Position numbers and translations under genes: made by a program. DNA of 64,000 bases from the human T2T-CHM13v2.0 reference genome, Homo sapiens. The stretch is from NCBI RefSeq assembly GCF_009914755.1, contig NC_060937.1. One strand, given 5' to 3'. Shown in pieces: positions 8,556-9,749 of the stretch. The notes beneath the pieces were generated by a model that worked only from the letters and a program-made list of their open reading frames with translations, made no database searches and was not told the origin of the DNA. Position 1 is the stretch's first letter. Every line of letters begins with the position of its first letter.

Positions 8556-8567
8556 AAAAGTCAAAAA
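8556..8567 (+). repeat. 5' target-site duplication of the L1 (aaaagtcaaaaa)
   Basis: Identical 12-mer at 14599-14610; preceded by TT, giving the L1 endonuclease site TT/AAAA. Confidence 0.92.
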
Positions 8568-9498
8568 GTTTTTCTCGTCTGTTTTTTTCCCCATCTTTGT
8601 GGTTTTATCTACTTTTGGTCTTTGATGATGGTGATGTACAGATGGGTTTTTGGTGTGGATGTCCTTTCTGTTTGTTAGTTTTCCTTCTAACAGACAGGAC
8701 CCTCAGCTGCAGGTCTGTTGGAATACCCTGCTGTGTGAGGTGTCAGTGTGCCCCTGCTGGGGGGTGCCTCCCAGTTAGGCTGCTCGGGGGTCAGGGGTCA
8801 GGGACCCACTTGAGGAGGCAGTCTGCCCATTCTCAGATCTCCAGCTGCGTGCTGGGAGAACCACTGCTCTCTTCAAAGCTGTCAGACAGGGACATTTAAG
8901 TCTGCAGAGGTTACTGCTGTCTTTTTGTTTGTCTGTGCCCTGCCCCGAGAGGTGGAACCTACAGAGGCAGGCAGGCCTCCTTGAGCTGTGGTGGGCTCCA
9001 CCCAGTTCCAGCTTCCTGGCTGCTTTGTTTACCTAAGCAAGCCTGGGCAATGGCGGGCGCCCCTCCCCCAGCCTCACTGCCGCCTTGCAGTTTGATCTCA
9101 GACTGCTGTGCTAGCAATCAGCGAGACTCCGTGGGCGTAGGACCCTCCGAGCCAGGTGCGGGATATAATCTCGTGCTGTGCCGTTTTTTAAGCCCAATGG
9201 AAAAGCGCAGTATTTGGGTGGGAGTGACCCGATTTTCCAGGTGCCGTCAGTCACCCCTTTCTTTGACTAGGAAAGGGAACTCCCTGACCCCTTGCACTTC
9301 CCGAGTGAGGCAATGCCTCACCCTGCTTCGGCTCGCGCATGGTGCATGCACCCACTGACCTGCGCCCACTGTCTGGCACTCCCTAGTGAGATGAGCCCGG
9401 TACCTCAGATGGAAATGCAGAAATCACCCATCTTCTGCGTCGCTTTCGCTGGGAGCTGTAGACAGGAGCTGTTCCTATTCGGCCATCTTGGCTCCTCC
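8568..9498 (-). promoter_or_regulatory. Inverted L1 5'UTR: sense promoter on minus strand, antisense promoter on plus strand
   Basis: Reverse complement from 9498 reads GGAGGAGCCAAGATGGCCG (L1 5' terminus, intact YY1 site 9480-9490) through to the ORF1 ATG at 8594-8592; CpG-rich. Confidence 0.93.
9050..9358 (+). CDS. ORF0: L1 ORF0, C-terminally extended variant (102 aa)
   Basis: MAGAPPPASLPPCSLISDCCASNQRDSVGVGPSEPG...VGVTRFSRC matches primate L1 ORF0; internal donors CAG|GT at 9155/9156 and 9240/9241; expression unknown. Confidence 0.8.
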   Translation: MAGAPPPASLPPCSLISDCCASNQRDSVGVGPSEPGAGYNLVLCRFLSPMEKRSIWVGVTRFSRCRQSPLSLTRKGNSLTPCTSRVRQCLTLLRLAHGACTH

Positions 9499-9749
9499 GA
9501 AAAACTGGAAACTCTAAAAAGCAGAGCGCCTCTCCTCCTCCAAAGGAACGCAGTTCCTCACCAGCAACGGAACAAAGCTGGGGGGAGAATGACTTTGACG
9601 AGCTGAGAGAAGAAGGCTTCAGATGATCAAATTACTCTGAGCTACGGGAGGACATTCAAACCAAGGGCAAAGAAGTTGAAAACTTTGAAAAAAATTTAGA
9701 AGAATGTATAACTAGAATAACCAATACAGAGAAGTGCTTAAAGGAGCTG

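What the first reader, a model, noticed from the sequence alone, without database searches (positions are those of the whole stretch)
8556..9510. Twin-primed L1 in which the inversion captures the entire 5'UTR with no loss
Seen: TSD, then the reverse complement running from ORF1 codon ~9 back to the L1 5' terminus (GGAGGAGCCAAGATGGC), then the sense body resuming with a 7-nt duplicated breakpoint (gtttttc 8568-8574 versus gaaaaac 9499-9505). Established: twin priming yields this geometry, but usually with 5' truncation and breakpoints further 3'. Here all L1 sequence is retained and the flip coincides almost exactly with the promoter module.
Basis: partly seen in the sequence, partly recalled or inferred. 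Interest (0 to 1): 0.7.

Follow-up and report, generated by a model that had tools for sequence, protein, structure and literature searches.

The report
Jumping gene with flipped promoter
A dead human LINE-1 jumping gene whose whole front end, promoter included, sits back-to-front with almost nothing lost, likely a known copying slip during insertion that rarely leaves this shape; a second, older copy on chromosome 11 is broken at nearly the same spot.

Summary
The geometry is confirmed at the stated coordinates. One ~6.03-kb L1 (L1PA3-like) lies between 12-bp target-site duplications at a TT/AAAA site. Its first 931 nt (904-nt 5'UTR plus 9 ORF1 codons) are inverted; the body resumes with a 7-nt overlap. 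'No loss' holds except for 0-3 terminal Gs; three bases next to the TSD are altered. ORF1 and ORF2 are both broken. Twin priming is the best explanation (0.85). The shape is rare: 0 of 287 published inverted L1s reach the 5' end, at most 8 of 492 lack a 5'-truncation tag in another catalogue, and my partial census of 2,009 young L1 5' ends (about 37% effective coverage) found no other loss-free case. New here: an independent, older chr11 L1 has the same architecture, its body starting 8 nt from this junction, and a probable chr10 case starts 88 nt upstream of the ORF1 ATG. Chance of such a twin is roughly 2-22% depending on assumptions, so a breakpoint hotspot at the 5'UTR/ORF1 boundary is suggestive, not shown. 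No evidence of function. A rare member of a known class.

The parts
8556..8567 (+). 5' target-site duplication AAAAGTCAAAAA, preceded by TT (L1 endonuclease-type TT/AAAA site)
   Evidence: (D15)
8568..9498 (-). inverted 5' piece, L1 nt ~1-930: whole 5'UTR (8595-9498, 904 nt) plus first 27 nt of ORF1
8568..8594 (-). ORF1 start remnant (ATG 8594-8592); carries an extra A and two substitutions next to the TSD; frame runs into the flank and stops after 28 aa
8568..8574 (-). first copy of the 7-nt junction duplication; one further base (8567) is shared with the TSD (1-nt microhomology)
9050..9358 (+). ORF0-like frame, 102 aa (71 aa in two relatives), now pointing into the L1 body; GT donors after 9155 and 9240
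9499..9505 (+). second copy of the 7-nt duplication; internal inversion junction at 9498/9499, no microhomology
9499..14580 (+). non-inverted body from ORF1 nt 20 to the 3'UTR; ORF1 headless with a stop at 9624-9626; ORF2 with frameshifting deletions near 10631 and 10834, open 10812-14375
14581..14598 (+). degenerate poly(A) tail
14599..14610 (+). 3' target-site duplication AAAAGTCAAAAA

Best explanation
This is one L1PA3-like LINE-1 insertion whose first 931 bases are inverted between intact target-site duplications, most likely made by twin priming during integration. Shown: a single TSD pair at an endonuclease site, poly(A), opposite-orientation pieces of like age, 7-nt overlap. Inferred: the poly(A)-primed cDNA ran 5.1 kb to ORF1 nt 20; the other target end primed on the same RNA at ORF1 nt 26 with one base of complementarity, made a few errors in the A-rich tract, and copied through to the RNA 5' end; the two cDNA ends were joined blunt. 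The copy was dead on arrival (ORF1 decapitated) and has since gathered further stops and frameshifts. The flipped UTR would send the sense promoter leftwards into unique flank and the antisense promoter into the L1 body, with no intact protein product predicted; no such transcript is annotated.
For: Geometry, TSD, TT/AAAA and overlap. Same age of both pieces: non-CpG divergence 1.5-2.9% (5' piece) and 1.8-2.3% (first 2 kb of body) to 5 relatives (script failed on the sixth). Not inherited from an inverted source lineage: the 39 best other ORF1 matches all have their 5'UTR match on the colinear strand. Junction overlaps are a described twin-priming outcome: 42% of germline cases, median 12 bp (Nummi); 17% in tumours (Zumalave). 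TSD length fits (Kojima). No inverted repeat links the two breakpoints among the 25 longest of 397 pairs listed. An independent TSD-flanked chr11 element shows the same architecture.
Against: Microhomology is only 1 nt at the TSD junction and 0 at the internal junction, whereas ~70% of 5'-inverted L1s show 2-5 nt at the TSD junction (Kojima). 5'-complete inversions are very rare in published sets (0 of 287; at most 8 of 492). Twin priming itself is a model that a 2023 review says still needs experimental validation. No ape orthologue could be examined.
Confidence: 0.85

Rival explanations
1. The inversion arose during integration by another route: a full-length cDNA was made and its 5' segment was flipped by end remodelling (fold-back and cleavage), or the second end primed on a second L1 RNA.
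For: Near-absence of microhomology; complete 5' end; overlap sizes resemble TSD sizes (Nummi); end remodelling gives inversions at L1-induced breaks (passages); dual priming has been proposed (passages).
Against: No fold-back complementarity between the L1 5' end and the breakpoint is visible; both pieces are of one age class; twin priming needs no extra step.
Confidence: 0.09
2. A colinear full-length L1 inserted first and its 5' 930 bp were inverted later by a genomic rearrangement.
For: All sequence is retained, as in a balanced inversion; a 7-nt duplication could be a staggered break.
Against: One breakpoint would have to fall exactly on the TSD/L1 boundary with no loss of TSD, twice independently (chr13 and chr11); no flanking inverted repeat.
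Confidence: 0.04
3. Two separate insertions (a young L1 nested antisense in another L1) or an assembly error mimic an inversion.
For: Nesting is the commonest source of such junctions: 7 of the 8 sense-flank junctions that I followed up were nested or otherwise not simple inversions, one (chr5:176.83 Mb) at this very ORF1 position.
Against: Here one TSD pair encloses both pieces, they are complementary with 7-nt overlap and of equal age. A polymorphic Alu called from population long reads at chr13:104,602,912 (window 8912) has a TSD matching the plus strand of the inverted piece, weak support that other haplotypes share the orientation.
Confidence: 0.02

Closest known systems
5'-inverted (twin-primed) L1 insertions (Ostertag and Kazazian 2001, not held, cited through)
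   Same: Two opposite-orientation pieces inside one TSD pair, endonuclease site, poly(A), small duplication at the internal junction.
   Different: No 5' truncation and a junction at ~nt 930; published medians are ~5.15 kb and the lowest non-inverted end among 287 cases is 2428. MELT reports junctions along most of L1 but none in the first 590 bp of 298 cases, so 930 is inside the reported range.
SVAN REV+DUP+FOR+POLYA conformation (Schloissnig 2025, Supplementary Table 18)
   Same: Would be this element's label; the tag occurs 127 times, REV+DEL+FOR+POLYA 365 times in the 18,827 rows held.
   Different: 484 of these 492 are directly preceded by TRUN; of the other 8, at least 3 are templated or jump cases. 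No breakpoints are given.
SpIRE97/976 spliced L1s (Larson 2018)
   Same: Near full-length L1PA copies disabled at the 5'UTR/ORF1 boundary, losing the ORF1 start.
   Different: SpIREs lose nt 98-975 by splicing; here nothing is deleted and the segment is inverted.
L1 antisense promoter / ORF0 chimeric transcripts
   Same: ORF0 frame and two donor-like GT sites are present.
   Different: They face the element's own body; donors are phase 1 and 2 against a phase-0 acceptor at 9545/9546 and ORF1 stops 26 codons later, so no in-frame fusion is predicted.

Membership tests
twin-primed 5'-inverted L1 | 5' piece inverted relative to a poly(A)-ended 3' piece | tested here: met
twin-primed 5'-inverted L1 | one TSD pair enclosing both pieces | tested here: met
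   12 bp exact
twin-primed 5'-inverted L1 | L1 endonuclease site at the target | tested here: met
   TT/AAAA
twin-primed 5'-inverted L1 | small deletion or duplication at the internal junction | tested here: met
   7-nt duplication
twin-primed 5'-inverted L1 | microhomology between TSD end and RNA at the second priming site | tested here: inconclusive
   1 nt only; 95% of cases have at least 1 nt, ~70% have 2-5 nt
twin-primed 5'-inverted L1 | microhomology at the internal junction (common, not obligatory) | tested here: not met
   blunt join; absence is reported as more frequent at this junction
twin-primed 5'-inverted L1 | both pieces from one element or subfamily | tested here: met
   like divergence to 5 relatives; single RNA molecule cannot be proven
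twin-primed 5'-inverted L1 | inversion present from insertion (empty site in outgroups, no colinear allele) | not testable with these tools
   no ape genomes held; no deletion row for this L1 in the part of Table 18 held
L1PA3 (short-5'UTR form) | 904-nt 5'UTR lacking the ~129-bp segment of older copies | tested here: met
   segment present in L005, L008, L018, L057-L059, absent here; the subfamily meaning is recalled
L1PA3 (short-5'UTR form) | 3'UTR diagnostic bases | tested here: inconclusive
   window reads GCTAAATGAC-A-AGTTAATGGG, unlike the GCTAGATGAC...TTAGTGGG of its closest ORF1 relatives; assignment to L1PA3 is from recall, no consensus library was available
SpIRE | intron-like deletion with GT/AG ends in the 5'UTR/ORF1 | tested here: not met
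   no deletion in the 5' piece
retrotransposition-competent L1 | intact ORF1, ORF2 and a sense promoter upstream | tested here: not met

The most novel reading that the evidence does not exclude
The A-rich start of ORF1, where the RNA passes from the GC-rich 5'UTR into the A-rich body, is a recurrent site at which first-strand reverse transcription stalls and the second target end primes, so that L1 repeatedly produces copies with a cleanly flipped promoter module: two independent insertions of different age (chr13, chr11) end their inverted piece at the same base with local sequence errors, and a third (chr10) restarts 88 nt upstream of the ATG.
Probability: 0.2. Interest if true: 0.55.

Novelty: new member of a known kind. 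Interest (0 to 1): 0.3.

Why it matters
As a single locus it is a dead repeat. It matters modestly as an extreme case of twin priming: it shows the second cDNA can reach the RNA 5' end after the first has run 5.1 kb, and it is a natural test of what the L1 sense and antisense promoters do when the module is turned round (two RefSeq enhancer elements, 8390-8930 and 8913-9653, overlap it; their type is not given). If the chr11 and chr10 cases reflect a hotspot at the 5'UTR/ORF1 boundary, that would point to a sequence- or ribosome/ORF1p-defined pause in reverse transcription, a handle on the open question of what triggers the second priming.

Tried and rejected
Long-query DNA search to rank other inverted copies: ranks by diagonal, returned only colinear copies. 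chr3:58.88 Mb hit: colinear. Four further hits: no L1 5'UTR. Six extra hits: none continues as ORF1 (absent), taken as chance flanks. chr5:176.83 Mb junction at the same ORF1 base: a young L1 nested in an 81-88% identical older one. In-frame ORF0-ORF1 fusion: phases do not match. A longer TSD priming through the T-run downstream of the target: considered, the insertion does not contain that sequence. MELT Table S10 part 1 of 2 holds rates, not positions. Tab-spanning terms in Table 18 gave nothing. The scan's earlier findings were not available. No protein, structure or RNA-family searches were run, as the question is one of DNA geometry.

Full report
OBSERVATION. The sequence shows AAAAGTCAAAAA at 8556-8567 and again at 14599-14610 after a degenerate poly(A); the 5' copy is preceded by TT, the consensus L1 endonuclease context. 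Aligned to a natural colinear relative (L050), 8568-9498 is the reverse complement of positions 2-930 and 9499 onward is positions 924-6044: a 7-nt overlap and no internal loss at the junction. The inverted piece holds the 904-nt 5'UTR and 27 nt of ORF1. Small departures from 'no loss': the 5' end lacks 0-3 G compared with colinear copies, and next to the TSD there is an extra A and two substitutions; 36 of 43 ORF1 starts counted read 6 A plus CAGAACAG or CAGAGCAG, and the chr13 and chr11 inverted pieces are the two most altered L1 starts in that list (one of the 43 rows is an unrelated motif match).

WHAT IT IS. A single L1 of about 6.03 kb. It lacks the ~129-bp 5'UTR segment of older copies and its 3'UTR looks L1PA3-like (recalled diagnostics). 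Both pieces diverge alike from five relatives. The 39 closest other ORF1 matches are all colinear, so the inversion is private to this insertion. ORF1 is headless and has a stop at 9624-9626; ORF2 has frameshifting deletions near 10631 and 10834. On the plus strand an ORF0-like frame of 102 aa and two donor-like sites now face the body, but their phases (1 and 2) do not match the phase-0 acceptor at 9545/9546, which by position corresponds to the A974G975 acceptor of Larson 2018. The 5' piece keeps 27 CpG against 34 and 38 in two relatives. The annotation lists two enhancer elements over it and no transcript.

MECHANISM. Twin priming explains all tested features; the steps are inferred from established models (Kojima 2010). 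Weak points: microhomology is 1 nt at the TSD junction and none at the internal junction, less than typical. Post-insertion inversion would need a break exactly on the TSD boundary; nesting is excluded by the enclosing TSD and equal age.

HOW RARE. Nummi 2025 Table S12, read whole: 0 of 287 inverted L1s reach the 5' end (lowest inverted end 825; lowest non-inverted end 2428). Schloissnig 2025 Table 18, of which only the first 18,827 rows are held: 484 of 492 REV+DUP/DEL+FOR+POLYA tags are preceded by TRUN, and at least 3 of the remaining 8 are templated or jump cases. Zumalave 2024 describes all 1,836 somatic inversions as 5'-deleted, median junction 5.15 kb. Against over-reading: Gardner 2017 found junctions along most of L1 in 298 cases and none only in the first 590 bp. 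My census: a 15-nt young-L1 5'-end anchor occurs 2,009 times. Three enrichment patterns gave 242 matches (first 100 rows listed, 85 loci on chr1-5, 84 fetched), 25 loci and 39 loci; 135 distinct flanks were aligned. Ten had sense L1 directly attached; two were 70-81% identical old L1 and were not followed up; of eight followed up, six were nested insertions, one (chrX:47.20 Mb) runs on past the junction position with no 3' end where expected, and one (chr5:45.70 Mb) is a probable 5'-complete inversion with a large internal deletion, TSD not resolved. Effective coverage is about 37% if breakpoints are uniform and junctions clean, giving a 95% upper bound of about 8 other loss-free cases among 2,009.

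RECURRENCE. Searching with the junction found one other spanning match among 40 scored of 1,615 candidates: chr11:29.18 Mb, confirmed reciprocally. It is an older, independent insertion (about 93% to its relatives, 13-bp TSD, 6,083-bp span); its inverted piece lacks 10 nt of the 5' end, its body starts at ORF1 nt 12 (here nt 20), and after 12 scrambled bases its TSD begins with the three bases that follow ORF1 nt 26, the base where the chr13 inverted piece ends. Exhaustive exact-pattern scans for this junction found no further true case; they miss copies with mismatches or offsets above about 17 nt. Four scans with older or clipped 5'-end anchors (7, 14, 22 and 12 rows) were judged by eye only. 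[quoted passage not shown] With 5-30 other 5'-complete inversions genome-wide, the chance that one starts within a 25-nt window is 2-22%; the shared end base lowers this further but is a post hoc detail. Short inverted pieces alone would crowd 5'-complete cases into the first 2 kb. The A content does step from 17-28% to 43-44% at nt 800. I rate a real hotspot at about 0.2.

LITERATURE SEEN. Passages only: Nummi 2025, Schloissnig 2025, Zumalave 2024, Law and Burns 2026, xTea, Mendez-Dorantes preprint, Meyer 2010, Larson 2018, the 2023 review, Klawitter 2016. Kojima 2010: parts 1-3 of 5. Gardner 2017: passages, section 12, Table S10 part 1 of 2. Ostertag and Kazazian 2001 and Szak 2002 were not held; Szak surveyed reference-genome inversions and may already list such cases. 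Preprint supplements and Schloissnig's first supplement were not readable and may bear on rarity. Eight searches (listings only for papers not named above) showed no title or abstract start on this locus or on an ORF1-start hotspot; that is not proof of absence.

VERDICT. Real, correctly described, mechanistically a known class at a rare extreme, functionally dead as a retrotransposon, with a suggestive but unproven recurrence at the ORF1 start. Interest 0.3.

Noticed in passing
L018 (G000:C11:29178500-29187500), element span 6,083 bp: Older L1 with the same architecture: 13-bp TSD, near-complete 5'UTR inverted, body from ORF1 nt 12, 12 scrambled bases beside the TSD.
   Followed up: yes
G000:C10:27906720-27906754: [quoted passage not shown] Locus not fetched.
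   Followed up: partly
L208 / L153 (G000:C5:45697025-45700155): L1 5' end joined head-to-head to the last ~100 nt and poly(A); inverted piece at least 1.5 kb, absent at +5.6-6.4 kb: probable 5'-complete inversion with a large internal deletion.
   Followed up: partly
L162, L203, L204 (G000:C23:47.197-47.204 Mb): Young L1 5' end abutting 97%-identical sense ORF1 sequence from nt ~1708, with no 3' end at the expected distance; structure unresolved.
   Followed up: partly
L124 / L140 (G000:C5:176824600-176826400): Young L1 nested antisense in an older L1 at the same ORF1 base as the window's junction; mimics the geometry.
   Followed up: yes
window 45245-46107: An older L1 fragment with the ordinary geometry: inverted piece (ref 5681-5284) joined to a forward 3' piece (5690-6148), 75-84% identity; no clear TSD recovered.
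   Followed up: partly
window 8912 (chr13:104,602,912): A polymorphic non-reference Alu insertion inside the inverted 5'UTR is listed in Schloissnig Table 18; another Alu insertion is listed inside the chr11 element (chr11:29,184,142).
   Followed up: no
window ~10834 and L053: The 4-nt ORF2 deletion seen against L050 is not seen against L053, which appears to lack the same bases: recurrent slippage or a shared allele.
   Followed up: no
window 14606-14619: The 3' TSD end and flank form a short A/T palindrome (AAAAATATTTTT) at the site of the second-strand nick.
   Followed up: no
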